Assembly (NCBI GenBank): GCA_008081395.1
Contig: VMCJ01000011.1
Span: 14,264-78,263 of the forward strand
Source of the DNA: Rhodospirillales bacterium
GTDB taxonomy: Bacteria; Pseudomonadota; Alphaproteobacteria; Bin95
Length of the DNA: 64,000 nt
Direction: 5' to 3'
Part shown: piece by piece, positions 24,233 to 54,892 of the stretch
Numbering within the stretch: position 1 is the first letter of the stretch
How the letters are laid out: each line of letters opens with the position of its first letter
Program-made: the position numbers and the translations under genes
Notes under the pieces: model-generated
Database searches by the model: none
What the model was told of the DNA's origin: nothing
What the model saw: the letters and a program-made list of their open reading frames with translations, nothing else

Positions 24233-24309
24233 TGGCGGGAGTGACGGGGCTCGAACCCGCGACCTCTGGCGTGACAGGCCAGCGCTCTAACCAACTGAGC
24301 TACACCCCC
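24233..24309 (-). tRNA. tRNA-Asp (anticodon GTC)
   Basis: The reverse complement gives GGGGGTGTAGCTCAGTTGGTTAGAGC...CCTGTCACGCCAG...GGTTCGAGCCCCGTCACTCCCGCCA. This has a cloverleaf, a CTGTCAC anticodon loop and an encoded CCA. Confidence 0.85.
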
Positions 24310-25210: not shown

Positions 25211-25286
25211 TGGTGGGCGATGACAGACTCGAACTGCCGACATCCTCGGTGTAAACGAGGCGCTCTACCAACTGAGCTAATCGCCC
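25211..25286 (-). tRNA. tRNA-Val (anticodon TAC)
   Basis: The reverse complement gives GGGCGATTAGCTCAGTTGGTAGAGCGCCTCGTTTACACCGAGG...GGTTCGAGTCTGTCATCGCCCACC, with a TTTACAC anticodon loop. Confidence 0.85.
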
Positions 25287-44230: not shown

Positions 44231-44902
44231 CTAGGGATTCCATAATTCTAAGTCTGCAACGGATGCCCGAATTTTAGTTTTTGTATCGTCGCTATCTGCA
44301 GAAATTGCTAAACCAACAAGCGTTGTGATTGGTGCACCAAAAGCAGTTAAAAAGTCTTGGTCTAAATTTACAGACTCTTGAAATCTTCCCAAGCCAGAGG
44401 GGCGTAGGATAATCGTTTTACCCTGATTACCCAGGTACGGCGTTAACAAAAAATCACCTCGTTTATGAGCTCCTCCAAAAACGTACATCAATACTCTGAT
44501 GGATTTATTGTCGAGCATTGAAAGCATTGACTTATGTTGCAGGGTTGGTGCGTCTTTTGCCTCCGCGAATACAAAGTACATTGCAAGATTGCGATCATCG
44601 CTTCCTTTAATAGTTAGATCCGTTGGGGGAACAGTTTTAGTTACCTCCCATGTCCATGACGCTTTTTTGGTCGATCCACTTTTGCCCTCTGTCGCAGACC
44701 AAATCATCGACACGGTTTTGTCAGATTCAACCAACACCTGGTTCATATTGGTTATGTATTTATTTGATGAGAACACTGAAAATTTTTGATGGGTCCAGCC
44801 ATCAAAATTGATCGACTTTGCTAATGCTGGATTGATGATAAATACCAACATGGCTAGCAGGCACCAAAGTATCTTCCCCGTTGAAAACAATGAATTATTC
44901 AT
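44231..44902 (-). CDS. hypothetical secreted protein in a low-GC stretch
   Basis: Signal peptide (LWCLLAMLVFIINPALA). Length is 223 aa. Local GC (~40%) is visibly lower than in flanking genes. Confidence 0.45.
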   Translation of the reverse strand: MNNSLFSTGKILWCLLAMLVFIINPALAKSINFDGWTHQKFSVFSSNKYITNMNQVLVESDKTVSMIWSATEGKSGSTKKASWTWEVTKTVPPTDLTIKGSDDRNLAMYFVFAEAKDAPTLQHKSMLSMLDNKSIRVLMYVFGGAHKRGDFLLTPYLGNQGKTIILRPSGLGRFQESVNLDQDFLTAFGAPITTLVGLAISADSDDTKTKIRASVADLELWNP

Positions 44903-44954: not shown

Positions 44955-45722
44955 TCATTCCATTACAAGGCCACCATCTACATAAATCGTTTGTCCAGTG
45001 ATGAAAGCCGACCAGGGTGAAGCTAGAAAAAGTACTGGCCCCGCTATGTCTTCGGGCTTCGCTATACGTCGCAATGGGGTGGCAGAGATAATATCTTCTT
45101 TGATATTTTCTCGCACCCTTTCGCTCGCTTTAGTTGGGTAAACTAACCCAGGGGCAACAGTGTTGACGCGTATTCCAAGGGGGCCAAGTTCAGCTGCTAA
45201 TGTGCGCGTAAACCCTACTAGGGCGGCCTTTGCAGTTGCATAGTCGTGGTATGGGACGACGGGTCTCGCAATCAGATCGGTGGCAATGTTAATGATGGAT
45301 CCGTTGGCGCGGGTTAACATGTTTGGAACCGCTGCTTGCACCATATTATGAGCGGCCTGCACTGCACCCTCAAATTGGCTCTGGTAATCTTGCCAATCTA
45401 GGTCCCAATGAAGTTTCCTCCGCTCTGGGTCAAACTCATATGGTCGAAAAGCGTTGTTAACTAGAACGTCGATCTTCCCAAAGGCTTCAATGGTCTCGGA
45501 GACTAAGTTTGTTGCACCGTCTTTATTTGTAACATCAGAGCAGATTGCTAATGCTACTCCGCCATTTGTCTCGCAGGCTGCAACAGTTGCCGCCGCGGTT
45601 TCGGCATTGGTTAAATAATTTACACCAACGTTGGCCCCTTCGCGCGCAAAAGCTTGAGCAATTGCCGATCCTATCCCGCGACCAGCACCAGTGACGAGCA
45701 CACTTTTTCCGCTAAAATTCAT
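44955..45722 (-). CDS. SDR family oxidoreductase, last enzyme of the TPP-riboswitch operon
   Basis: TGAGRGIG Rossmann motif and a YxxxK active site are present. It starts 5 nt after the binding-protein gene. Confidence 0.8.
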   Translation of the reverse strand: MNFSGKSVLVTGAGRGIGSAIAQAFAREGANVGVNYLTNAETAAATVAACETNGGVALAICSDVTNKDGATNLVSETIEAFGKIDVLVNNAFRPYEFDPERRKLHWDLDWQDYQSQFEGAVQAAHNMVQAAVPNMLTRANGSIINIATDLIARPVVPYHDYATAKAALVGFTRTLAAELGPLGIRVNTVAPGLVYPTKASERVRENIKEDIISATPLRRIAKPEDIAGPVLFLASPWSAFITGQTIYVDGGLVME

Positions 45723-45727
45723 AGTTA

Positions 45728-46702
45728 TTATTTCGGTATGAGATCGCTGAAGATAACCTTTTTCATCTCTAATTTAGATTTAATTAGTCCTAGTTCTAAG
45801 AAAGTGTCAGCGCCTTTTTGCAAGAGCTCGACGTCAAAATGCCCAAGCCCTTTAGCTTTAGTCGTTTGTGATTGCGCAGAGAGATTTCGGAGTTTGATGA
45901 TTGCAAGGTTTACCTTTTCGTTCCGCCCGTTAATTGAGCGCGTTATAGCGATTTTTGCCGCTTCTTCCGGCTCAGAAATCATCCACGCAGCACTTTTTTG
46001 ATATGCTTTTAAAAATCGGCGGAGTAGGGGTTTTTGATCCCTATAATGATTGCGGCGAACGACAAACATATCGCTTGGTACATTAAGGCTATCTCTGACC
46101 TCTATTACATCGACCTCACCAATGCCCTTTAGTTTAGCAACGTAAAGGCCAGTGTCGGTTGCTGCAGTGGCATCCACTTGGCCTTGCATTACTGGTGCAA
46201 AGTTAAGCAGACCAGTTACCTTAATTTTAACATCAGTCTCTTTAAGCCCCACCTGATGCAGTAGGACCTGAAGATTTTGCCGAGTTCCGCTGGAAAGGCT
46301 GTATACCCCGATAGTCTTCCCTTTTAAGTCTGCCGGTGTCTTGATACCCCGACCAACCGGTGAAACCACGTTAAAAACATTTTGGGGGTAGATATTGTAA
46401 ATGGCTACTAAGTCCTCGCCTTTATCGAGAGCTTGATAGAAAGAGGCTGGATCTGTGAACGCTACATCCGCTGCTCCTGAGAGCATATTAGCAATTGCGG
46501 ACCCCCCACCTGCGCCTGGGACGTAGCCAAGGTCTATTCCTTCTGCTTTAAAAAACCCTTTGTCAGGTTCGGCAAGTATATTGGTGATTTCGCTAATTGG
46601 TTTACTCCAACCAGCAATACGTACCTTTTCAAGAGTTGCAGACATGGCTGCAGAGCTGGTGAAAGAGAACGCTAATATCGCTGCCAATAGAGAATGTTTC
46701 AT
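45728..46702 (-). CDS. ABC transporter substrate-binding protein, NMT1/THI5-like (ThiY-like)
   Basis: Signal peptide plus an NMT1/SsuA/TauA-type periplasmic binding fold. A TPP riboswitch heads the operon. Confidence 0.7.
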   Translation of the reverse strand: MKHSLLAAILAFSFTSSAAMSATLEKVRIAGWSKPISEITNILAEPDKGFFKAEGIDLGYVPGAGGGSAIANMLSGAADVAFTDPASFYQALDKGEDLVAIYNIYPQNVFNVVSPVGRGIKTPADLKGKTIGVYSLSSGTRQNLQVLLHQVGLKETDVKIKVTGLLNFAPVMQGQVDATAATDTGLYVAKLKGIGEVDVIEVRDSLNVPSDMFVVRRNHYRDQKPLLRRFLKAYQKSAAWMISEPEEAAKIAITRSINGRNEKVNLAIIKLRNLSAQSQTTKAKGLGHFDVELLQKGADTFLELGLIKSKLEMKKVIFSDLIPK

Positions 46703-47457
46703 TAGAAGGTGCCTTTCTGACGGCTTTGTAAAATCCGCCTCTCAATTACAACTATAATTTGATAAAAAAAGAGGCCCATAAGGGTGATCAGAATAAAAAG
46801 AGCGAAAATTAAGGTTGTATCCATCATCCCTTGAGCAGCAATGATGCTAGCTCCTAGCCCCTTGCTGCCTGCAATAAATTCGCCAACTACTGCGCCTACC
46901 AAAGCGAGAACTATCGCAACTCGAATTCCAGCTAGAATTACGGGCATGCTGGTTGGAAGCTTCAGTCGCAATAAGGTCTGAAGTCTGGTCGCACCCAGCA
47001 TGCGAAAGAGATCTCTTTTCTCCTGCGGAACATTTGATAAACCCGTTATTGTGTTTTCGAGCAGTGGAAAGAAACAGATTAGAGCTGTGATAATGACCGT
47101 AGAGGTCATCCCAAAGCCGAACCAGATTATGAAAATTGGTCCAAGAGCTAGTTTTGGCACTACCTGACTGGCAAGCACGTAAGGCCAAAGGAGACGGCGA
47201 AGGCGCGGCATTTCGGCAAGTATCGCGCCAATAAGGAAACCGATGACGCACCCTAGGGCAAATCCCAACAGAGTCTCAGCACCAGTTACCCAGAGATGTT
47301 GCCAAAGAGCACCAGATACAAGGCCATCCCAAAGTGTTTCTGTAACTGCTGAAGGCGCAGGAAGTACCAGAGGCGAAACTCCGGAGAGCAACACACCCAG
47401 CTCCCAGGCGATCAGTACCGCTACGAGCAGAGCAGAGCTGGATATATGCCTCAACAC
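46702..47457 (-). CDS. ABC transporter permease, NitT/TauT family (ThiX-like)
   Basis: 6-TM permease with an EAA-like loop. It overlaps both neighbouring genes. Confidence 0.8.
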   Translation of the reverse strand: MLRHISSSALLVAVLIAWELGVLLSGVSPLVLPAPSAVTETLWDGLVSGALWQHLWVTGAETLLGFALGCVIGFLIGAILAEMPRLRRLLWPYVLASQVVPKLALGPIFIIWFGFGMTSTVIITALICFFPLLENTITGLSNVPQEKRDLFRMLGATRLQTLLRLKLPTSMPVILAGIRVAIVLALVGAVVGEFIAGSKGLGASIIAAQGMMDTTLIFALFILITLMGLFFYQIIVVIERRILQSRQKGTF

Positions 47458-48215
47458 TGTCCCGCCCCTAATAACATTGCCGATCTGACTTTCCGGCAGA
47501 GTTTGGAAAAGTGGGCTTCATATCGTAAGTCTGAGGCTCGTGGTCTAGGAAGGTCTATTTCGACTTCGTGGGTAATAAGCCCTCCCTCCATAACTAAGAT
47601 TTTGTCTCCCAGGTATGCTGCTTCTCCAATATCGTGGGTGACAAAAATTACAGTCGTGCCGCTGGCTTCAACCAGATTGATTAATACGTCTTGGAGATCC
47701 TCACGGGTTAATGCATCAAGAGCAGCGAATGGTTCGTCCATCATTAGGACGGGGGGGGAGGTAACAAGCGATCGGGCAAGCGCTGCCCGGCTTTGTTGCC
47801 CGCCCGAAAGTTGTTCTGGATAACGTTGAGCAAGATGCTTGATGCCAGCGAGTTCCAGCAGTTCGAGCGCAAATTTTTCATCCGATTTATTTACAGAGCC
47901 TTTAAGACTTATAGGTAGTAAGACGTTATCAATTACCGTTAACCATTCTAGAAGGGATGGCGTTTGAAATACAAAACCAACATCTGAAGATGGCCCATCG
48001 ACAGGGGTATCGCTAATTTTAATTGAGCCGGACGATGGTGCCAGCAGGCCAGCAGCCACTTTTAAACATGTAGTTTTTCCGCATCCACTCCTGCCGACCA
48101 AGCAATAAAACCCGCCTTTGGGAATGTTAAAGTCAATTCCCAAAAGACCTTTTGATCCATTAGAAAAAGTATAGCTAACTTTTGATAGGCTAATTGAGGT
48201 TGGGTTAGTCTGCAT
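47451..48215 (-). CDS. ABC transporter ATP-binding protein (ThiZ-like)
   Basis: Walker A GRSGCGKTT, the LSGGQQ signature and Walker B MMDEPF are present. Confidence 0.85.
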   Translation of the reverse strand: MQTNPTSISLSKVSYTFSNGSKGLLGIDFNIPKGGFYCLVGRSGCGKTTCLKVAAGLLAPSSGSIKISDTPVDGPSSDVGFVFQTPSLLEWLTVIDNVLLPISLKGSVNKSDEKFALELLELAGIKHLAQRYPEQLSGGQQSRAALARSLVTSPPVLMMDEPFAALDALTREDLQDVLINLVEASGTTVIFVTHDIGEAAYLGDKILVMEGGLITHEVEIDLPRPRASDLRYEAHFSKLCRKVRSAMLLGAGQC

Positions 48216-49656
48216 AACTGGCCAAATCTTCAGCAGCAGTTTCAGCGCGAGCCTCTATTTCGGTTATTCTTACTAGGTCAAGCAAATTGAAACGTCCATC
48301 GTGGTGCCAGCCGGCTTCTGGTGAGGTCATATCGCCAAGAGCAGTAACACGGGTCACCCCGACTTCACCTAACATGGAGGCAAGGTTGAAAAGACGTTCT
48401 GGTGTCGCAGAGATTGCCGCCGTTTGGATCAATGTTTTGTAGGGCTTGGATAATATTGGCGTTTCTTCAAGGTCGTCGACGGCAACAATTCTGATAGTAC
48501 GATTAAGACCACTTGGCCTCAGTGCACGGTCTTGCAGTTGAATTGAGACAGTCCAATTACCGTTGCATGGTTCTACGACTTTACCACCCAGACGGGTCTC
48601 TTCTGCCATACGCCATTCTACTAAGCTAGATGCCTCGGCAAGAGAGAGGGGGCGCCGCGGGAATTTTTCCTCATAACTTGCAAGTGATTGGGCTATGTAA
48701 GTTCCAAAAGTTTCTGGTGAAATTGCACCACCTTTTTCGACGAAGAAAACATGCGGTGAGTAACACCCCTGCTGGTCATATCGTACAACGTCGTATGCAG
48801 CCTTTCTTGCAGTTGAAGAGGCGCGGGAGGGATCAAGGGCTTCTCTCCCAATTAGGCCAAAGCTGATTTTATGGCCGTGAGCTAGAAAGCGCGTCGATGC
48901 TGGGGCTTGCGCTGCTAGCGCTGCGATCGCCGTGTCTCCACCGTATGCAAGTGCAACATCTGCTTCCCTAAACAGTCCGGCCTCAAGTTCTGTATTGCCG
49001 CCCTGCCACCAAACCAGTGCTATCGTCTTCGCGAGTTCAGGATCGGTTTCCGCTAAAACGTCATGAAACCACCCTGCAAAAAAAGGCTCAGCTGTCGCAA
49101 CCTTTCCAACGCTTGCGGCCTTCACTAACAGTCCAGCAATCAGTGTCCAAAGAGGCAGACCAGGAACATTTCCTGCCCAAACATGTGCTAAGAGATCAGG
49201 TCCAAAGGCACGACCAAAGCCTCCTTTAACAAGTGGCTGGAATTTGTCGAGAATACCTGGGTTTGGAAAGTCTTCGGTAATGAAACGCTGAAGTTGCGGT
49301 TTTCTGAACGTTTTGAGATAGCCAGTAAGGCCAATCCGCACCATTTCTTCGTCATAGCCAGTCACTATTGGCAGCAAATGCTCCATTTTTTTTCGAACTG
49401 GGTGGCTTCTGTCGAGAAGACGGGCCACTGTCTGGTCAATAGCAGTAAGAACCCTATCGACAGGCCAAGTTTTGACACTGTTTCTCGCGTTGAGCCGAAC
49501 TTTGGAGGCGATGATACTCAGATCTGCGGACTGCAAATTTGGCGTTAATGCAATTAAGCTCTTTTCACCATCTCCGCCATATTGCCTGGGCTCCCAATGA
49601 ATCCTCTCTGGATCAAGCCCATGAAGGCGGCCTACGTATTCAACGTCTGTTGTCAA
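48205..49656 (-). CDS. LuxC-family acyl-CoA reductase (aldehyde-forming)
   Basis: 483-aa protein whose architecture and conserved blocks resemble LuxC (aldehyde dehydrogenase-superfamily fold with a catalytic Cys region). It overlaps the LuxE-like gene by 4 nt. Confidence 0.65.
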   Translation of the reverse strand: MTTDVEYVGRLHGLDPERIHWEPRQYGGDGEKSLIALTPNLQSADLSIIASKVRLNARNSVKTWPVDRVLTAIDQTVARLLDRSHPVRKKMEHLLPIVTGYDEEMVRIGLTGYLKTFRKPQLQRFITEDFPNPGILDKFQPLVKGGFGRAFGPDLLAHVWAGNVPGLPLWTLIAGLLVKAASVGKVATAEPFFAGWFHDVLAETDPELAKTIALVWWQGGNTELEAGLFREADVALAYGGDTAIAALAAQAPASTRFLAHGHKISFGLIGREALDPSRASSTARKAAYDVVRYDQQGCYSPHVFFVEKGGAISPETFGTYIAQSLASYEEKFPRRPLSLAEASSLVEWRMAEETRLGGKVVEPCNGNWTVSIQLQDRALRPSGLNRTIRIVAVDDLEETPILSKPYKTLIQTAAISATPERLFNLASMLGEVGVTRVTALGDMTSPEAGWHHDGRFNLLDLVRITEIEARAETAAEDLASYAD

Positions 49657-50735
49657 TTTGCAGCCGCCGATATCAAAAATTCATCGACCGCCATTGAACA
49701 CCCCTGAGCCTCGGCACCACTAACGCGCCCATGGAGCATGAAACCTTCATCCACCTCAACCCCTGCATCTTCTGTCAATATAGTGGTTACAATATTGAAG
49801 TGGGCGAGGTCTGTGTGCGCAAGAACACCAGTCGTGCCCTTGGGGAGGGATGAGCCTGTGAGAGGGTCAACGACACGTGTTTTTATCCAATGGGGGCCAG
49901 ATTTAACAGACGGACAAACAGCATTACCATTGTCATAGAATTGGGTGCTGAGCTCAGTCATTCCATACATATTGATGCAGTTTGCGCGAGAGACCCCAAA
50001 AGCATTTTGAAGGGCATCATAAAATGTATCCAACTCCAACTCTCGGGATTGGCCTTTAAAACCTCCAGTATCGAGAAGGCGGCTGCCAGGCGGTAGTTGG
50101 AAGCGTCTTCCCTGACGTTCCATTTCATCTAAAACATGGACGAAGCTGAAACTGGCGCCCAGCAAACCGTATGATACACCATTTTCTTCTGCATCTTCCA
50201 AACTGTGGAATAAGCGTTCGTAATCGATGCCATTACTTCTAACAAAGTGGGAGCTTCCCTCAGAGCCAAAGTATTGCTTGGCGAGTTCAAGATAATGGGC
50301 GAGCGAGGAATTCGGCATAGCCACAGGTGGCGGAAAAAGAATGCCAATTTTTAGTTTTTCTCTATTGCCCATGAATCGTTCGAGAAAATTTTGACGCATT
50401 GATGCGTTATATACGGCCAAGGTTGGATGGTAGCTTTTCCCTCTTTTTCCACCCTGTGTTGTGCCACTTGTCATAAAGGTGGCTTCTGCACTTGTTGGAG
50501 AGGAGCATGTAAGGTCAAGCGTCTTGAAGGCGCTGATGGGTACAGCGGGAATATCTGCCCAGTGCCGCACCGTTTTGGGTGTTTTTCCTCTTGCTAAGCA
50601 AAACTTTTTGAACGGCAGGTTATGTTCAAATTGATATGCAAAAATTGAAAGCGCCATCTGATCGAAATCGGCTTCGACAGCATTTTTATTTTCGATGAAG
50701 GTTAGGAGTTTGCTAACAACTTCAGCCTCATCCAT
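49653..50735 (-). CDS. LuxE-family acyl-protein synthetase (adenylate-forming, ANL-like)
   Basis: TSGTT AMP-binding P-loop (MTSGTTQGGKRGKSY), about 360 aa in length, and LuxE-like conserved blocks. It is the first gene after the riboswitch. Confidence 0.65.
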   Translation of the reverse strand: MDEAEVVSKLLTFIENKNAVEADFDQMALSIFAYQFEHNLPFKKFCLARGKTPKTVRHWADIPAVPISAFKTLDLTCSSPTSAEATFMTSGTTQGGKRGKSYHPTLAVYNASMRQNFLERFMGNREKLKIGILFPPPVAMPNSSLAHYLELAKQYFGSEGSSHFVRSNGIDYERLFHSLEDAEENGVSYGLLGASFSFVHVLDEMERQGRRFQLPPGSRLLDTGGFKGQSRELELDTFYDALQNAFGVSRANCINMYGMTELSTQFYDNGNAVCPSVKSGPHWIKTRVVDPLTGSSLPKGTTGVLAHTDLAHFNIVTTILTEDAGVEVDEGFMLHGRVSGAEAQGCSMAVDEFLISAAAN

Positions 50736-50789
50736 CGCGCTATCTCCACTCAGAGGATGACACTAGGAGAGGGATAGGCCGCATCTTTA

Positions 50790-50930
50790 GAGTCCCATTC
50801 CCTCCGCCGGTATAATCCGGTTCAGGTTCAAAGGGTCATCGTGCTGACACTCATTTTAGTCAACGACCAATGGTGTCTATCGATATCTCAGCCCTTAAAG
50901 CAGGGCCCCCCTACGGTAAGTCCCAGACGC
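50790..50930 (-). promoter_or_regulatory. TPP (thiamine pyrophosphate) riboswitch, THI-box
   Basis: The minus-strand RNA reads ...GGGGGGCCCUGCUUUAAGGGCUGAGA-(variable hairpin)-ACCCUUUGAACCUGAACCGGAUUAUACCGGCGGAGGGAA. Compare the E. coli thiM aptamer GGGGUGCCC...GGCUGAGA...ACCCGUAUCACCUGAUCUGGAUAAUGCCAGCGUAGGGAA. The aptamer ends ~55 nt upstream of the luxE-like ATG. A CUCUCC element could sequester the GGAGAU Shine-Dalgarno. Confidence 0.85.
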
Positions 50931-51062: not shown

Positions 51063-51911
51063 TTAGGAAATTAAAACTCCTTTGGCGTCGTCTGACGCGA
51101 TTGTACAACGCCAGTGAACACGACGCTCTTCGATGGGATAATCTGCTGTTGCAGAATGGAGTGTGCAACGATTGTCCCAGGTAACCAGATCACCGACTTC
51201 CCACTTGTGTCTATATTCTGCCCCCGGTGCAATTTGATATTGTTCTAGTTCTTGAAAAAGATCCTTCGCTTCTTGATCAGATAAGCCAACGATCCGCAGC
51301 AAATGTGTAGGATTGAAGTAAAGAGTTTTTTGTCCAGTCTCACTATGAGTGCGAATTAAGGGGTGTCGCACTGGTGGAAGATTTCTGTCCTCTGGCTCAA
51401 GCAGTTCCGAACTTTTTCGAGATACACCCCCATAAACATAATCTGCTTCCAAGTTTTGAATTCTCTTCTTAAGGGTATTTGGTAAGGAGTTATAAGCCAT
51501 AGCCATATTGGCAAAGAGCGTGTCTCCACCTCTTGATGGGATCTCCAAGCCAAAAAGCTGTGTGGCTTTACACCCCTTTGGATCCCAAGGACCATCTGTG
51601 TGCCATCCGTGTCCGCGCGTATATACCGGCCTATTTACAGTCCCATCAGCATTGCGAGCATTGGTGCCCATGACCGTCAATTCGGGATGATTTGGATGAC
51701 GTGATTTTTTTACTAAGTGTGGAAAAATTTCGCCAAAGCGTCGGCCATAGCTGAGAAAGTCTTCAATTGTAAGTTCTTGACCACGAATGCAGATCACACC
51801 AGCTTCGAGCCAGGCTCTATAGATCAGCTGAAATTCACTGTCGCTTATGCTTCGAATATCTATACCGGTGACGATTGCCCCACAGCCAGGACTGGCCTTT
51901 TCAATATGCAC
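51063..51911 (-). CDS. TauD/TfdA family Fe(II)/2-oxoglutarate dioxygenase
   Basis: HxD...H facial triad (HWHTDGPWD ... H) and TauD-like blocks are present. The likely GTG start at 51911/51914 sits immediately after AGGAGGAGG, which overlaps the upstream stop. The ORF-track TTG start at 51950 would overlap the LLM gene by 29 nt. Confidence 0.75.
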   Translation of the reverse strand: MHIEKASPGCGAIVTGIDIRSISDSEFQLIYRAWLEAGVICIRGQELTIEDFLSYGRRFGEIFPHLVKKSRHPNHPELTVMGTNARNADGTVNRPVYTRGHGWHTDGPWDPKGCKATQLFGLEIPSRGGDTLFANMAMAYNSLPNTLKKRIQNLEADYVYGGVSRKSSELLEPEDRNLPPVRHPLIRTHSETGQKTLYFNPTHLLRIVGLSDQEAKDLFQELEQYQIAPGAEYRHKWEVGDLVTWDNRCTLHSATADYPIEERRVHWRCTIASDDAKGVLIS

Positions 51912-51921
51912 CACCCTCCTC

Positions 51922-52917
51922 CTACTGCAGCTCGCTTTTGATTTCACCAATTAGTTCAATTGCCTTGAGTACATCCTTTTGGGCTAATCCAGGCCACTGC
52001 AGCCTAACTATCAGGTGATTGACCCCAAGTTTTTGGTTAAGCCATTGGATCCGATCTTTCACCATAGCCTTGTCGCCAATAATGAAACGAGCTGCTTGGA
52101 AGTCATCAAAAGCCTCTTCGAAAGGTTGTCCTGCAACATTGGCGCTACCCCACGACGCGTAAGCTGAATACTTGTAAATTAGGGGTTCCTTGGCGATAGC
52201 AAAAGCCTGTTTAGCCGTAGTAGCGACGAAGCATTCCCGTATCATTGGTTTTTCAGTGGGAGGGCCAAGACCTTTTGCTTCGCGTTCTTCATCATAAATC
52301 GCGTAATTGCGTTCCAACTGATCCCAATCAGCAGATGGGCTAACTAGCCAGGCATCAGCTATTCGAGCAGCACGACGTATTGCGGGTTCTACGCTTGCTC
52401 CGATCCAAAGAGGCAGGGAGGATCCATTTTTGGGTCTAACAGAGGCGCCAACGTCTGTTAGCTGAAAGAACTGGCCCGTATGAGAAATGCGGTCCTCTGA
52501 CCAGAGGCGCCGAATGACGTTGATTGCTTCTGTCGTCCGAGCGGCACGCTTACTAAAATTGACCCCAAAGGCCTCGAATTCTGCCTCACGATATCCTAGG
52601 CCAACGGCAAGAATATAACCACCTCTGCAGATCCAATCGAGTGTTGCTGACTCTTCGGCCACTTGAACAGGGTTAGTCATACCTAGGAGCCATATACCGG
52701 GCCCCATTCGCATATTTCCCGCTTCTGCAGCAAGTCTTGCTAACAGAATATTAGCCTGAAACATGCGAAGAGGCTGCGTCAGGTAGTGGTGTGGCGCTAT
52801 GATAGAGGAAAAACCACAATCGCGAGCAGTACGCACCTGAGCCAACAAATTTTCAGTTGCATCATCTAAAGGCGCGTCATCAGAAAATTGTGGATTTATG
52901 TAGAGGCCAAAGTCCAT
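51922..52917 (-). CDS. LLM-class (luciferase-like) flavin-dependent monooxygenase
   Basis: TIM-barrel LLM blocks with an MDFGLYINPQF start. The internal ATG at 52917 avoids overlap with the amidohydrolase gene. Length is ~331 aa. Confidence 0.7.
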   Translation of the reverse strand: MDFGLYINPQFSDDAPLDDATENLLAQVRTARDCGFSSIIAPHHYLTQPLRMFQANILLARLAAEAGNMRMGPGIWLLGMTNPVQVAEESATLDWICRGGYILAVGLGYREAEFEAFGVNFSKRAARTTEAINVIRRLWSEDRISHTGQFFQLTDVGASVRPKNGSSLPLWIGASVEPAIRRAARIADAWLVSPSADWDQLERNYAIYDEEREAKGLGPPTEKPMIRECFVATTAKQAFAIAKEPLIYKYSAYASWGSANVAGQPFEEAFDDFQAARFIIGDKAMVKDRIQWLNQKLGVNHLIVRLQWPGLAQKDVLKAIELIGEIKSELQ

Positions 52918-52940
52918 TTGACATCTCTCTCTTGCAGAAA

Positions 52941-53975
52941 TCAGTTTATTTTGTAGGTGCGAACCGCCGTGTCGTGGAATAGCTGACGTTTTTCGTCGAC
53001 GCTGTAATCCAGTGTAAGGTGCTTGAAAGAATTCCAAAGAGTGTTGTAGCTGCAGCTGGTCATATCTACTGGAAAGTTTGACTCGAACATACATCGACTG
53101 GTGCCAAAGTGTTCAATGGTATGTTCGTACCAACGTCGAGTTGCCTGCATTAAAGTTTCGCTAGTTGGTGGTGTGTTATGATTTTCCCAGCCAAAGCCGT
53201 TGATATCCATATTGATGCCACCAAGTTTTGCTAACACATTTTGACAGGTTGCTAGATCGGCTATTTCTTTCTGCCAGATTGGAAAAATGTCGTCAGCTTT
53301 ACCCGCATAAGGTCCAATTCCAAGAGGGCCTCCAAAGTGATTTAGAATGATAGTTGTATCTGGAAATGCCCGTGCTAGTGCGGTTACTTCTTTAAGTTGT
53401 GTGTGATAGCACCAGGCTTCAAAAGTCATATTTCTGGGAGCTAATTCAGCAAACCCTTCTCTGAATTTTGCATTTGAAAATCGGTCCGGCCCGTTTGCAT
53501 CTTTGGCGCTGCGAATCGAATTGTCAGCATCCCACTGGCCCTGGCAGCGAATTCCACGAAATCGCCCTCCGCCTGCTTGAACATGGGCATCAAGAACTTC
53601 GCCAACAGCACTGCCAATATTTAAATTGGCTGAGCCAACGATAGCTGCTGCAACCCTGCACTTCCCATACAAGCCAGAAGCACTCATCGCCGCGATACCA
53701 TTTACGAACTCTGTTTCTCCAACGCACTTCAGGTGCTCTGGACCACTCGCCCTGTACATCGCTGAGCACTCAATGAACACAGTGCTGACAATGTTATGAC
53801 CAGAATTTAAGTCCGACAAAATTTCATCAAGAAGATATTTCGGCGCTACACGGTCATGGCGAAACTCCCACAAGTGATGATGAGGATCACAGATCGGCAA
53901 TTCCGGCTCCAAAGTATCTTCGATGACTTTGTCTAACCATGGCTTATTTTTTGAAGGAGTCATCATGCTATCCAT
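52941..53975 (-). CDS. amidohydrolase-2 (PF04909-type) metal-dependent TIM-barrel hydrolase/decarboxylase
   Basis: N-terminal DPHHHLW metal-binding motif and an Amidohydro_2-type C-terminal region. Length is 344 aa. Confidence 0.75.
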   Translation of the reverse strand: MDSMMTPSKNKPWLDKVIEDTLEPELPICDPHHHLWEFRHDRVAPKYLLDEILSDLNSGHNIVSTVFIECSAMYRASGPEHLKCVGETEFVNGIAAMSASGLYGKCRVAAAIVGSANLNIGSAVGEVLDAHVQAGGGRFRGIRCQGQWDADNSIRSAKDANGPDRFSNAKFREGFAELAPRNMTFEAWCYHTQLKEVTALARAFPDTTIILNHFGGPLGIGPYAGKADDIFPIWQKEIADLATCQNVLAKLGGINMDINGFGWENHNTPPTSETLMQATRRWYEHTIEHFGTSRCMFESNFPVDMTSCSYNTLWNSFKHLTLDYSVDEKRQLFHDTAVRTYKIN

Positions 53976-54091
53976 TTTGAAAATTCCCGACGTTACAGCG
54001 TGCGCTCGTTAGATATTATCCTCAAGGCATTTGATTGCATTTAGTTGCCGCTATCCAATAGGCTGTAGTGATAAATTGGGAGAAAATCCTC

Positions 54092-54892
54092 ATGGAAACG
54101 CCGACTTCAATTCGTGCTGAAGTTCGCTATGTGAATGCTGAATGGAAAGGTCGAAATGAAATTCCTCGAATAGGGTCCAGGGAAACACGACGGGCTAACA
54201 CGTCCCGAAAGTCCATAGATATTTACGATGCTCGACCAGGCCTTGCGAATGGTGAAATCACTTTAGATGGTTCCGGTTTTACGCTTGAAAAGCTTGTGCA
54301 CGCCGTAGAAGATTTTCGTGATATTGAGGCCACAGCGCGCCAGTACTACCCCGCTGTTGAAAAGTTGGTGGCCGATCTTTCTGGAGCAAAGAATGTATTT
54401 GTCCGGGATCATTTGGTTCGAACAGAGGTTCCCATTGACTTCAATGATGGATACGCAAGATTTGTTCATTGCGACTATAACATGAAGAGGTTGAAGGAGA
54501 TGTCTGAGTCTTTGTTGAAGGCTAGAGGTATTGAGCCGAAAGAAGACTGGACCTATGCGTGGTTCAATACCTGGCAGCCTTTTGACAACCCAGCCGTAAA
54601 TAATCCGCTAGCTTTTATAGATTGGCAATCATTGCCAGAAGATGACGTAATTGATTACTTCTATACAGGTCGAAACAGAGAGAGTTTGGTGGCGGCTCCC
54701 GTTTATAATCCAGATCACGTTTGGCGCTATGTGCCGTCGATGTCGCCAGATGAAATTCTGATTTTTAAACAGATGGACGGAAGGCGTAATGCATCTGTTT
54801 ATTGCCCTCATACCTCTTTTGATAATCCTGCGGCCCCGGACGATGCCCCACCGCGTCGAAGTGTTGAAACACGGTTGTTGGCAGTTTTTTAA
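54092..54892 (+). CDS. hypothetical protein, possibly a CmcJ/NvfI-like non-heme iron oxygenase
   Basis: 267-aa soluble protein with candidate HxD (FVHCDYN) and distal His (YCPHTSF) ligands. The assignment is tentative. ATG at 54092 is preceded by GGGAGA. Confidence 0.35.
   Translation: METPTSIRAEVRYVNAEWKGRNEIPRIGSRETRRANTSRKSIDIYDARPGLANGEITLDGSGFTLEKLVHAVEDFRDIEATARQYYPAVEKLVADLSGAKNVFVRDHLVRTEVPIDFNDGYARFVHCDYNMKRLKEMSESLLKARGIEPKEDWTYAWFNTWQPFDNPAVNNPLAFIDWQSLPEDDVIDYFYTGRNRESLVAAPVYNPDHVWRYVPSMSPDEILIFKQMDGRRNASVYCPHTSFDNPAAPDDAPPRRSVETRLLAVF

What the first reader, a model, noticed from the sequence alone, without database searches (positions are those of the whole stretch)
48205..50735. 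LuxC/LuxE fatty-acid-reductase-like pair without luciferase or LuxD, under thiamine control
An adenylate-forming LuxE-like synthetase (TSGTT motif) and a LuxC-like aldehyde-forming reductase overlap by 4 nt. No luxAB or luxD is present. They are followed in the same tightly overlapping operon by an importer and an SDR. The gene content fits a three-step route: adenylate a carboxylic acid, reduce it to the aldehyde, then reduce the aldehyde to the alcohol with the SDR. Given the TPP riboswitch, the substrate may be an oxidized thiamine fragment. Classic thiamine catabolites are 4-amino-2-methylpyrimidine-5-carboxylate and 4-methylthiazole-5-acetate. Reducing these would regenerate HMP or 4-methyl-5-(2-hydroxyethyl)thiazole for salvage. 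That would be a new thiamine-precursor salvage route.
Basis: inference. Interest (0 to 1): 0.85.

Follow-up and report, generated by a model that had tools for sequence, protein, structure and literature searches.

The report
Thiamin-riboswitch-controlled carboxylate-reducing salvage operon
A vitamin-B1-sensing RNA switch controls a widely conserved gene set (importer, LuxE/LuxC-type acid-to-aldehyde reductase, and the long-orphan reductase OarX), which most likely recycles an oxidised fragment of vitamin B1 back into a usable precursor; this pathway has not been shown experimentally.

Summary
A TPP riboswitch (50922-50782, minus strand) precedes a tightly packed operon: LuxE-like ligase, LuxC-like reductase (4-nt overlap), an ABC importer with an NMT1/THI5-type binding protein, and an SDR.

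The arrangement is strongly conserved. Of 80 related genome loci, LuxE is present in 79/79, the SDR in 72/72 and the riboswitch in 74/78 (counting only loci with enough flanking DNA). The same riboswitch-LuxE-LuxC(-SDR) core occurs in alpha-, beta- and gamma-Proteobacteria, Bacillaceae, Lactobacillaceae, Staphylococcus and Micrococcaceae. The co-encoded transporter varies: ABC, NCS2 nucleobase-type or SSS permease, sometimes with ThiW.

Both Lux-like proteins keep the catalytic cysteines of the luminescence enzymes but score far below the Lux orthologue cut-offs.

The SDR belongs to the OarX family. OarX is a thiamin-linked orphan first flagged in 2002. A 2024 study proposed carboxylate reduction and got negative genetic results in Corynebacterium, whose described operon is oarX-fmnO with no LuxE/LuxC.

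Best reading: import of an oxidised thiamin moiety, most likely the pyrimidine carboxylate, then ATP/NADPH reduction to the aldehyde and SDR reduction to the alcohol (HMP). The substrate is inferred, not shown. I found no paper linking LuxE/LuxC to thiamin.

The parts
50782..50922 (-). TPP riboswitch aptamer (RF00059). It ends 46 nt upstream of the LuxE-like start codon. No intrinsic terminator was found between them, so control is probably at translation initiation (inferred).
   Evidence: 65.1 bits, gathering score 54.3, model positions 1-105. Equivalent aptamers sit at the same position in 74 of 80 related loci. Sequence and scans.
49653..50735 (-). LuxE-like acyl-protein synthetase (360 aa). 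It carries TSGTT 89-93, Lys227 (equivalent to LuxE Lys238), Arg337, and a C-terminal QGC346SMA motif (equivalent to the acylated Cys364 of LuxE).
   Evidence: Pfam PF04443, 64.3 bits. NCBIfam LuxE equivalog scores only 70.9 against a cut-off of 550. The only PDB sequence hit is LuxE 7xc6_E. The C-terminal GR..G..A.GCS.A motif is invariant in 17 sequences from Proteobacteria and Firmicutes.
48205..49656 (-). LuxC-like acyl-thioester reductase that forms an aldehyde (483 aa, TTG start, 4-nt overlap with the upstream gene). The catalytic cysteine is Cys298 in YDQQGC.
   Evidence: Pfam PF05893, 279.6 bits. NCBIfam LuxC equivalog scores 85.1 against a cut-off of 750. Cys298 aligns with the YDQQAC cysteine of P. 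phosphoreum LuxC (called Cys296 in PMC9157457) and is invariant in 15 homologues. The best fold match of the predicted model is 7xc6_A.
47451..48215 (-). ABC transporter ATPase of the importer.
   Evidence: PF00005. Conserved in this position in 64 of the 80 loci.
46702..47457 (-). ABC transporter permease (SsuC/TauC-like).
   Evidence: PF00528; NCBIfam; conserved position.
45728..46702 (-). Periplasmic substrate-binding protein of the NMT1/THI5 (ThiY/SsuA) superfamily, with a hydrophobic N-terminal leader (read by eye as a signal peptide). It is the best-conserved protein of the operon.
   Evidence: PF09084, 156 bits. PDB relatives are 3qsl, 4nmy, 3ix1 (formylaminopyrimidine-binding ThiY, E 2e-7) and 2x26 (SsuA, E 8e-7). 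Median identity to homologues is 71%, against 55% for LuxC.
44955..45722 (-). OarX-family short-chain dehydrogenase/reductase (255 aa; TGAGRGIG 11-18, YATAK 161-165). Proposed to be the aldehyde-to-alcohol reductase.
   Evidence: PF13561/PF00106. Its best NCBIfam model is NF006393, 278.9 bits against a cut-off of 292. It is 46% identical over its full length to the Rhodococcus SDR of a TPP-riboswitch oarX-fmnO operon. It is present in 72 of 72 related loci with enough downstream DNA.

Best explanation
This is a thiamin-starvation-induced salvage (or repair) operon. When TPP is scarce, the riboswitch allows expression.

Proposed steps:
1. The ABC importer takes up an oxidised, carboxylate form of a thiamin building block. 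The most likely candidate is 4-amino-2-methylpyrimidine-5-carboxylate (PCA).
2. The LuxE-like enzyme adenylates the acid with ATP and parks the acyl group on its own C-terminal Cys346.
3. The acyl group passes to Cys298 of the LuxC-like reductase, which releases the aldehyde using NAD(P)H.
4. The OarX-family SDR reduces the aldehyde to the alcohol (HMP). HMP then enters the ordinary ThiD/ThiE route.

Shown here: gene content, riboswitch, conservation, catalytic residues and family relations. Inferred: direction of flux, the aldehyde intermediate, the role of the SDR and the identity of the substrate.
For: Regulation:
- A TPP aptamer lies directly upstream in the window.
- It is also present in 74 of 78 testable genome loci.
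- It is present in Priestia, Niallia, Lactiplantibacillus, Pantoea, Leuconostoc, Marinococcus, Staphylococcus and Paeniglutamicibacter.

Module integrity:
- LuxE is present in 79/79 and the SDR in 72/72 loci with enough DNA. Flanking genes are not conserved.
- In the plasmid collection, the 27 records with a LuxC-like protein of at least 39.9% identity are exactly the 27 records with the closest SDRs.

Chemistry:
- The LuxC catalytic cysteine is conserved.
- The LuxE Lys/Arg pair and the C-terminal acylation cysteine motif are conserved.
- The mechanism is taken from PMC9157457.

Link of the SDR to thiamin:
- SDRs 43-46% identical to the window's sit in TPP-controlled oarX-fmnO operons (Rhodococcus, Mesobacillus, Pseudochrobactrum) and in a TPP-thiM-thiE-thiD-oarX operon (Gemmobacter).
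- All of those scanned have NF006393 as their best model.

Pyrimidine-like substrate:
- The transporter tied to LuxE/LuxC is either an ABC system with an NMT1/THI5-type binding protein, an NCS2 (PbuX-like nucleobase) permease translationally coupled to LuxE, or an SSS-family permease.
- From general knowledge, the first two families include members that bind planar N-heterocycles. The predicted HMP carrier ThiV is an SSS member, although this permease matches only the SSS superfamily model, below its cut-off (54.9 vs 184 bits).

Literature: PCA, thiazole-acetate and thiamin acetic acid are known thiamin oxidation products with no known fate (PMC11223231).
Against: - There is no biochemical or genetic test of this operon anywhere that I could find.
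- In C. glutamicum, which has oarX-fmnO, PCA did not rescue an HMP auxotroph. Thiazole-acetate, thiamin acetic acid and the oxo derivatives did not rescue a thiG mutant (PMC11223231). The paper describes no LuxE/LuxC or matching importer in that strain, so the test does not address this operon. It does show that OarX alone is not sufficient.
- The binding protein is only remotely like ThiY (E 2e-7) and about equally like sulfonate-binding SsuA.
- Some Firmicutes operons start with ThiW, a predicted thiazole-precursor carrier. The OarX paper notes clustering with thiazole genes. Both point to the thiazole moiety.
- Four loci lack the riboswitch. Two relatives (L094, L099) have no adjacent SDR.
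- Substrate specificity of LuxE/LuxC-type enzymes cannot be read from sequence. The LuxC model is only of moderate confidence (pLDDT 71.6).
Confidence: 0.55

Rival explanations
1. Same three-step chemistry, but the substrate is the thiazole moiety: 4-methylthiazole-5-acetate is reduced via the acetaldehyde to hydroxyethylthiazole (HET), which ThiM then phosphorylates.
For: ThiW (PF09512, a predicted thiazole-precursor carrier) is the first gene of the operon in Niallia and in metagenome locus L092. thiM lies next to the module in L094 and in the Gemmobacter thiMED-oarX operon. [quoted passage not shown]
Against: The transporter that is always coupled to LuxE/LuxC is of a nucleobase-type or NMT1/THI5-type family, not ThiW. 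ThiW is absent from most operons. thiD (HMP kinase) is just as close as thiM in L094 and Gemmobacter. Thiazole-acetate did not rescue a C. glutamicum thiG mutant, although that strain has no described LuxE/LuxC.
Confidence: 0.18
2. The substrate is intact oxidised vitamin: thiamin acetic acid is imported and reduced back to thiamin.
For: Thiamin acetic acid is a documented bacterial and mammalian oxidation product (PMC11223231). The chemistry would be identical.
Against: The binding protein is of the NMT1/THI5 type rather than the thiamin-binding TbpA type. NCS2 permeases carry small nucleobase-like molecules. These are weak arguments from family membership only.
Confidence: 0.07
3. The operon is thiamin-regulated, but the pathway is not acid-to-alcohol salvage of a thiamin fragment. 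Either the aldehyde is the wanted product, or the SDR acts on another carbonyl, or the system makes or detoxifies an unrelated compound whose need rises when TPP-dependent enzymes fail.
For: No substrate is known. OarX also occurs without LuxE/LuxC, next to an NtaA/DmoA-type flavin monooxygenase or alone after thiMED. Five obvious substrates failed in C. glutamicum.
Against: The strict LuxE-LuxC-SDR triad, the thiamin-type transporters, and OarX fused into a thiM-thiE-thiD operon all point to precursor metabolism.
Confidence: 0.15
4. It is an ordinary fatty-acid reductase making fatty aldehydes or alcohols, as the RefSeq names ('long-chain fatty acid--CoA ligase', 'acyl-CoA reductase', GO term bioluminescence) suggest.
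For: Pfam family membership and the RefSeq annotations seen.
Against: Scores are 7-9 times below the LuxE/LuxC orthologue cut-offs. There is no luxAB or luxD. Identity to P. phosphoreum LuxC is 18%. A TPP riboswitch and thiamin-type transporters are invariably present, and a hydrophilic-solute importer is encoded inside the operon.
Confidence: 0.03

Closest known systems
LuxC-LuxE fatty acid reductase of luminous bacteria (P. phosphoreum complex, PDB 7XC6; PMC9157457)
   Same: Both have the same two protein families in adjacent, overlapping genes. Conserved features are the adenylation motif, the LuxE Lys/Arg pair, the C-terminal acyl-carrying cysteine of LuxE and the catalytic cysteine of LuxC. 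The chemistry is therefore very probably the same: ATP plus NAD(P)H, acid to aldehyde through two thioester intermediates.
   Different: Sequence identity is about 18-25%, and scores are far below the orthologue cut-offs. There is no luciferase and no LuxD acyl-transferase. Gene order is E-then-C. The operon is controlled by a TPP riboswitch, is coupled to a solute importer and a dedicated SDR, and occurs in non-luminous bacteria of three phyla. The substrate is almost certainly not a long-chain fatty acid.
OarX, the thiamin-associated orphan SDR (Rodionov et al. 2002, as cited in PMC11223231; Oliveira-Filho, Rodionov & Hanson 2024, PMC11223231)
   Same: The window's SDR has the same best family model (NF006393) and is 43-46% identical to SDRs in riboswitch-controlled oarX-fmnO and thiMED-oarX operons. 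It sits behind a TPP riboswitch. The published working hypothesis, reduction of an activated carboxylate of a thiamin fragment, is the one the gene content here suggests.
   Different: The published work describes partners such as fmnO, thi genes, thiV and 'occasionally acyl-CoA synthetase'. It does not mention a LuxC- or LuxE-type partner. Here the SDR would be the second reductase (aldehyde to alcohol), not an acyl-CoA reductase. The window's SDR scores just under the model cut-off (279 vs 292) and forms a subgroup.
ThiXYZ / ThiY formylaminopyrimidine importer of Bacillus halodurans (PDB 3IX1)
   Same: Both are ABC importers with an NMT1/THI5-fold binding protein under TPP-riboswitch control, and both serve pyrimidine-moiety salvage.
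   Different: Sequence similarity is only remote (E 2e-7), so the ligand is probably different. No ylmB or tenA partner is present; instead, reductive enzymes are encoded in the same operon.
Carboxylic acid reductases (CAR, ANL-PCP-reductase fusion enzymes)
   Same: The net reaction is the same: an ATP- and NADPH-dependent acid-to-aldehyde step, often followed by an aldehyde reductase.
   Different: CARs are single multidomain proteins that use a phosphopantetheine arm. Here there are two separate proteins, and cysteine thiols carry the acyl group.

Membership tests
LuxC family (PF05893, acyl-thioester reductase) | Scores above the Pfam gathering threshold over the full domain | tested here: met
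   279.6 bits against a cut-off of 21, profile positions 4-400 of 401.
LuxC family (PF05893, acyl-thioester reductase) | Catalytic acyl-accepting cysteine | tested here: met
   Cys298 in YDQQGC aligns with YDQQAC of 7xc6_A. It is invariant in 15 homologues. The role of this residue is taken from PMC9157457.
LuxC family (PF05893, acyl-thioester reductase) | ALDH-like fold closest to solved LuxC | tested here: met
   The best Foldseek PDB hit is 7xc6_A (E 2e-19), followed by aldehyde dehydrogenases. However, the model is only moderate (pLDDT 71.6) and the TM-score is 0.40.
Luminescence LuxC orthologue (NCBIfam NF052251) | Reaches the equivalog cut-off | tested here: not met
   85.1 bits against a cut-off of 750.
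LuxE family (PF04443, acyl-protein synthetase) | Scores above the Pfam gathering threshold | tested here: met
   64.3 bits against a cut-off of 24.9, profile positions 38-388 of 391. The generic AMP-binding family scores below its cut-off.
LuxE family (PF04443, acyl-protein synthetase) | Active-site Lys/Arg pair and C-terminal acylated cysteine motif (TRxxKGCxLS in LuxE) | tested here: met
   Lys227 aligns with Lys238. Arg337 and QGC346SMA match by position and pattern, but they lie outside the HMMER-aligned stretch (which ends at residue 326), so this match is by eye. The motif is invariant in 17 sequences.
Luminescence LuxE orthologue (NCBIfam NF052244) | Reaches the equivalog cut-off | tested here: not met
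   70.9 bits against a cut-off of 550.
lux operon (bioluminescence system) | Presence of luxA/luxB luciferase and luxD acyl-transferase with luxC/luxE | tested here: not met
   None is present in the operon or in the 80 related loci. The nearby LLM (51922-53094) is generic, lies outside the riboswitch-controlled unit and is not conserved.
OarX (thiamin-linked SDR, NCBIfam NF006393 / PRK08642) | Best-matching model is NF006393 and the cut-off is reached | tested here: inconclusive
   It is the best model by about 70 bits, but it scores 278.9 against a cut-off of 292. The LuxEC-linked SDR of Marinococcus passes (307.6). Rhodococcus and Gemmobacter OarX score 423 and 382.
OarX (thiamin-linked SDR, NCBIfam NF006393 / PRK08642) | Located downstream of a TPP riboswitch and/or among thiamin genes | tested here: met
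OarX (thiamin-linked SDR, NCBIfam NF006393 / PRK08642) | Clearly closer to recognised OarX than the ~30% identity reported between OarX and FabG | tested here: met
   46% identity over 255 residues (E 4e-65) to the SDR of a Rhodococcus TPP-oarX-fmnO operon. The 30% figure is from PMC11223231. I could not compare directly with the paper's own OarX sequences because its supplement is not held.
TPP riboswitch (RF00059) | Reaches the Rfam gathering score with the full aptamer | tested here: met
   65.1 bits against 54.3, model positions 1-105. Ligand response was not tested.
ThiXYZ-type pyrimidine-precursor importer | NMT1/THI5-fold binding protein with an ABC permease and ATPase, under TPP control | tested here: met
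ThiXYZ-type pyrimidine-precursor importer | Orthology to characterised ThiY and its ligand specificity | tested here: inconclusive
   E 2e-7 to 3ix1, which is similar to the match to SsuA 2x26. Ligand specificity cannot be tested with these tools.

The most novel reading that the evidence does not exclude
OarX is a dedicated reductase for a thiamin-moiety aldehyde, most simply 4-amino-2-methylpyrimidine-5-carbaldehyde reduced to HMP. It would be the common last step of at least two undescribed salvage routes that differ in how the aldehyde is made.

(a) The LuxE/LuxC-type pair makes it from the pyrimidine carboxylate. This is the route in this window and in at least 425 species-level genomes.

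(b) FmnO makes it in the oarX-fmnO operons. FmnO is an NtaA/DmoA-family flavin monooxygenase. From general knowledge, characterised relatives hydroxylate a carbon next to N or S and release an aldehyde. Possible substrates are aminomethyl-pyrimidine, the sulfonate left by sulfite cleavage of thiamin, or thiamin's own methylene bridge.

If true, this would add the pyrimidine carboxylate to the list of environmental B1 vitamers that marine and soil bacteria compete for.
Probability: 0.3. Interest if true: 0.85.

Novelty: new variant of a known kind. Interest (0 to 1): 0.72.

Why it matters
OarX has been an unexplained thiamin-linked gene for over twenty years. The one dedicated experimental study ended with five excluded substrates.

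The partnership shown here supplies what that study lacked:
- an activating enzyme
- an acid-to-aldehyde reductase
- a dedicated importer
- a set of tractable hosts that carry the full module: Pantoea dispersa, Azospirillum brasilense, Priestia megaterium, Lactiplantibacillus plantarum and Staphylococcus haemolyticus

This makes the question directly testable.

If the operon recycles oxidised thiamin fragments, it defines a new vitamin-B1 salvage route and possibly a new exchangeable vitamer in oceans, soils, fermented foods and on skin. It would also correct the misleading 'bioluminescence' and 'long-chain fatty acid' annotations that RefSeq records carry for these genes.

Tried and rejected
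- Conserved flanking thiamin genes: clustering of ORFs from the 80 loci and Pfam scans of the commonest neighbours found nothing conserved beyond the SDR. Greedy ORF picking was also noisy in high-GC loci.
- DUF3047 gene after the SDR: it occurs in none of the related loci, so I treat it as outside the unit.
- The window's luciferase-like monooxygenase as LuxAB or as FmnO: rejected. There is no LuxA/B match, similarity to Rhodococcus FmnO is only marginal (27% identity over about 140 residues, E 0.013), and it lies upstream of the riboswitch.
- Hidden riboswitches in L003, L010, L026 and L042: none found, even with filters off.
- ThiY ligand-contact residues: I wanted to compare these with the window's binding protein, but the structural paper (PMC2957805) is not held.
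- OarX paper sequence table: not held, so OarX membership rests on operon-defined relatives from the plasmid collection.
- Expression platform: the fold of the leader is not better than shuffles (z -1.2), so I make no claim about its mechanism.
- Literature searches for LuxC/LuxE plus TPP riboswitch, acyl-protein synthetase plus thiamin, and the names of the carboxylate catabolites returned only the OarX paper.
- Limit of the thiamin link: a LuxE/LuxC pair at 33% identity (L102) sits with radical-SAM and aconitase genes and has no riboswitch, so the link does not extend to the whole Pfam families.

Full report
**What is in the window**

On the minus strand, Rfam finds a full-length TPP riboswitch aptamer at 50922..50782 (65.1 bits, gathering score 54.3). 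Forty-six bases downstream begins a run of six tightly packed genes:

| Coordinates | Product | Pfam |
|---|---|---|
| 50735..49653 | LuxE-like protein | PF04443 |
| 49656..48205 | LuxC-like protein | PF05893 |
| 48215..47451 | ABC ATPase | PF00005 |
| 47457..46702 | permease | PF00528 |
| 46702..45728 | binding protein with a hydrophobic N-terminal leader | PF09084 (NMT1/THI5) |
| 45722..44955 | short-chain dehydrogenase/reductase (SDR) | PF13561 / PF00106 |

- The LuxE-like and LuxC-like genes overlap by 4 nt (TTGA).
- LuxE and LuxC are the best-scoring Pfam families for the two proteins. The generic AMP-binding family falls below its threshold.
- A DUF3047 gene follows on the same strand but is not part of the conserved unit.
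- Upstream of the riboswitch lies a separate cluster of TauD, a luciferase-like monooxygenase and an amidohydrolase. That monooxygenase is a generic LLM, not LuxA/B, and it is not a conserved neighbour.
- The window matches a TARA Oceans metagenome scaffold, and its G+C is about 0.48.

**Is the arrangement more than chance?**

The LuxC-like protein has more than 2,000 relatives at E <= 1e-10 in the word-indexed search. In the exhaustive search it has 455 cluster representatives at E <= 1e-30.

A scan of one genome per species found 425 loci that encode a relative, and the best 80 were kept. I built a covariance model from ten aptamers. It hits 74 of the 80 loci at the equivalent place, immediately upstream of the LuxE-like gene:

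- Two of the six misses are cut by contig ends.
- Four (L003, L010, L026, L042) truly lack the aptamer, even with filters off.
- The eight Polaromonas aptamers are divergent (25-37 bits).

tblastn with the window's proteins gave these counts:

| Feature | Present / loci with enough DNA |
|---|---|
| LuxE-like gene | 79 / 79 |
| SDR | 72 / 72 |
| ABC importer between LuxC and the SDR | 57 loci |
| SDR directly after LuxC, no importer | 15 loci |

Nothing beyond the SDR or before the riboswitch is conserved. The binding protein is the best-conserved protein of the operon, with a median identity of 71% against 55% for LuxC.

**Taxonomic reach and variants**

The genome loci come from:
- alpha-Proteobacteria: Bosea, Azospirillum, Roseovarius, Yoonia and many marine MAGs
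- beta-Proteobacteria: Polaromonas
- gamma-Proteobacteria: Pantoea

Searching annotated plasmids with the SDR and with LuxC gave the same 27 records at the top of both lists. There is then a clear drop for LuxC, from 39.9% to 30% identity or less.

| Organism or locus | Arrangement |
|---|---|
| Priestia megaterium | Same six-gene operon; aptamer slightly below the Rfam gathering score (49 bits) |
| Lactiplantibacillus plantarum | Riboswitch, NCS2 (PbuX-like) permease overlapping LuxE, LuxC, SDR |
| Leuconostoc | Tandem riboswitches, NCS2 permease, LuxE, LuxC, SDR |
| Metagenome loci L095, L096 | Riboswitch, NCS2 permease, LuxE, LuxC, SDR |
| Niallia taxi, metagenome locus L092 | Tandem riboswitches and a ThiW gene placed in front of the NCS2 permease |
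| Staphylococcus haemolyticus | Riboswitch-LuxE-LuxC-SDR-DJ-1/PfpI, plus a second, divergent riboswitch in front of a PF09819 gene |
| Marinococcus | Riboswitch-LuxE-LuxC-SDR |
| Paeniglutamicibacter (actinobacterium) | Riboswitch-SSS permease-LuxE-LuxC |
| L102 (33% identity) | LuxE/LuxC among radical-SAM and aconitase genes, no riboswitch |

L102 marks the edge of the thiamin-linked clade.

**What the proteins can do**

The only solved relatives by sequence are the two chains of the P. phosphoreum LuxC-LuxE complex.

- Cys298 of the LuxC-like protein (YDQQGC) aligns with the catalytic cysteine of LuxC and is invariant in 15 homologues.
- In the LuxE-like protein, Lys227 aligns with Lys238.
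- The C-terminus carries GR..G..A.GCS.A, invariant in 17 sequences from Proteobacteria and Firmicutes.
- That motif matches the LuxE motif TRxxKGCxLS, whose cysteine carries the acyl group (PMC9157457).
- A predicted LuxC-like structure is of moderate quality (pLDDT 71.6). Its best PDB match is LuxC, followed by aldehyde dehydrogenases.

Both proteins nevertheless score seven to nine times below the NCBIfam cut-offs for true LuxE and LuxC. They work like the luminescence reductase but are not its orthologues. From the established Lux mechanism, the pair should convert a carboxylic acid to an aldehyde at the cost of ATP and NAD(P)H.

**The SDR is OarX-like**

The literature search found one relevant paper: Oliveira-Filho, Rodionov and Hanson 2024 (PMC11223231).

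- OarX is an SDR that has been known since 2002 to sit behind TPP riboswitches and among thi genes.
- Its function is unknown.
- The authors proposed that it reduces an activated carboxylate of a thiamin fragment. They noted an 'occasional' acyl-CoA synthetase neighbour.
- They tested five oxidation products in C. glutamicum (operon oarX-fmnO). None was salvaged.
- The paper contains no mention of LuxC, LuxE or ThiXYZ.

I could not obtain its sequence table, so I defined OarX by operon context in the plasmid collection:
- riboswitch-SDR-LLM monooxygenase in Rhodococcus, Mesobacillus and Pseudochrobactrum
- riboswitch-thiM-thiE-thiD-SDR in Gemmobacter

The window's SDR is 46% identical over its full length to the Rhodococcus protein. 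It shares the same best NCBIfam model, NF006393:

| SDR | NF006393 score (cut-off 292) |
|---|---|
| Window | 279 |
| L. plantarum (LuxEC-linked) | 276 |
| Marinococcus (LuxEC-linked) | 308 |
| Gemmobacter OarX | 382 |
| Rhodococcus OarX | 423 |

. I therefore place the window's SDR in the OarX family, as a LuxE/LuxC-linked subgroup.

**Mechanism proposed**

TPP scarcity opens the riboswitch. A carboxylate is imported and then processed as follows:
1. It is adenylated and thio-esterified on LuxE-like Cys346.
2. It is passed to LuxC-like Cys298.
3. It is released as the aldehyde.
4. The OarX-type SDR reduces the aldehyde to the alcohol.

The invariant triad and its regulation support it. In this scheme OarX is an aldehyde reductase rather than an acyl-CoA reductase. 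That also explains why OarX alone could not salvage carboxylates in Corynebacterium.

**Which substrate?**

This part is inference.

Evidence favouring the pyrimidine carboxylate (PCA reduced to HMP) comes from the transporters physically coupled to LuxE/LuxC:
- an ABC system whose binding protein has the NMT1/THI5 fold of the formylaminopyrimidine-binding ThiY, though only remotely (E 2e-7)
- an NCS2 nucleobase-type permease
- an SSS permease, the superfamily of the predicted HMP carrier ThiV (general knowledge; this permease matches only the SSS superfamily model, below its cut-off)

Evidence favouring the thiazole:
- ThiW is in some operons.
- The literature reports clustering of oarX with thiazole genes.

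My rough weights are 0.45 pyrimidine carboxylate, 0.2 thiazole-acetate, under 0.1 thiamin acetic acid, and the rest something else.

**A wider idea**

FmnO in the oarX-fmnO operons is an NtaA/DmoA-family flavin monooxygenase (518-529 bits). From general knowledge, characterised relatives release an aldehyde from a carbon bound to N or S. OarX could therefore be the shared aldehyde-reducing step of several salvage routes. This is speculative and is recorded as the novel case.

**Novelty and verdict**

The chemistry is of a known kind. The SDR and the general hypothesis are already in the literature. The LuxE/LuxC partnership, its breadth (at least 425 species-level genomes and three phyla) and the transporter variants are not described in any paper I could search. 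I rate it a new variant of a known kind. Interest is high because it turns a twenty-year-old orphan into a concrete, cheap experiment.

Noticed in passing
window 44231-44902 (-): A DUF3047 protein (PF11249) with a hydrophobic N-terminal leader starts 52 nt after the SDR stop codon, on the same strand. It is absent from all 80 related genome loci, so it is probably not part of the unit.
   Followed up: partly
window 51063-53975 (-): A separate gene cluster lies just upstream of the riboswitch: a TauD-family dioxygenase, a luciferase-like monooxygenase (generic LLM; not LuxA/B and not FmnO-like) and an Amidohydrolase_2 protein. The last two ORFs as called overlap by about 150 nt, so one start codon is probably mis-called.
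   Followed up: partly
window 54068-54892 (+): A CmcJ/NvfI-family oxidoreductase (NCBIfam NF041278, 205 bits) with no Pfam match. Its role is unknown.
   Followed up: no
L084 3176-3472; L092 144-432; L100 3246-3535: Tandem TPP riboswitch aptamers (two in a row) precede the Firmicutes versions of the operon in Niallia, Leuconostoc and a metagenome contig.
   Followed up: partly
L003, L010, L026, L042 (upstream of the LuxE-like gene): Four alphaproteobacterial loci keep the whole operon but have no detectable TPP aptamer, even with the filters off. The eight Polaromonas aptamers are strongly divergent (25-37 bits) and fall below the Rfam gathering score in L054.
   Followed up: partly
L097 3883-4851: In Staphylococcus haemolyticus, a second TPP aptamer on the opposite strand controls a divergent PF09819 (ABC_cobalt) membrane protein. 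I recall this as the YkoE type of ECF substrate component, but I did not verify that. A DJ-1/PfpI protein follows the SDR.
   Followed up: no
L094 60-6509; L099 3202-7470: Two relatives have LuxE-LuxC with a permease but no adjacent SDR. In L094 the module lies beside thiM-thiD. In L099 (Paeniglutamicibacter) it follows an SSS-family permease.
   Followed up: no
L081, L082, L083 (RefSeq annotation): RefSeq names these genes 'long-chain fatty acid--CoA ligase' or 'acyl-CoA synthetase', and 'acyl-CoA reductase' with the GO term bioluminescence. Given the thiamin context, these names are probably misleading.
   Followed up: yes
L085 8765-10090; L087 6829-8136; L088 6762-8051: The monooxygenase partner of OarX (FmnO) is a clear NtaA/DmoA-family enzyme (TIGR03860; 518-529 bits in the two scanned, L085 and L088; the L087 gene was identified only from its RefSeq annotation). 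This suggests an aldehyde-releasing C-N or C-S cleavage upstream of OarX.
   Followed up: partly
L102 1-8661: A more distant LuxE-LuxC pair (33% identity) sits in an operon with radical-SAM, homocitrate-synthase-like, aconitase, flavoprotein and peptidase U32 genes, with no riboswitch. This is an unrelated and apparently uncharacterised use of the same two-enzyme reductase.
   Followed up: no
window 24233-24309 and 25211-25286 (-): tRNA-Asp(GTC) and tRNA-Val(TAC) genes. They look ordinary.
   Followed up: yes
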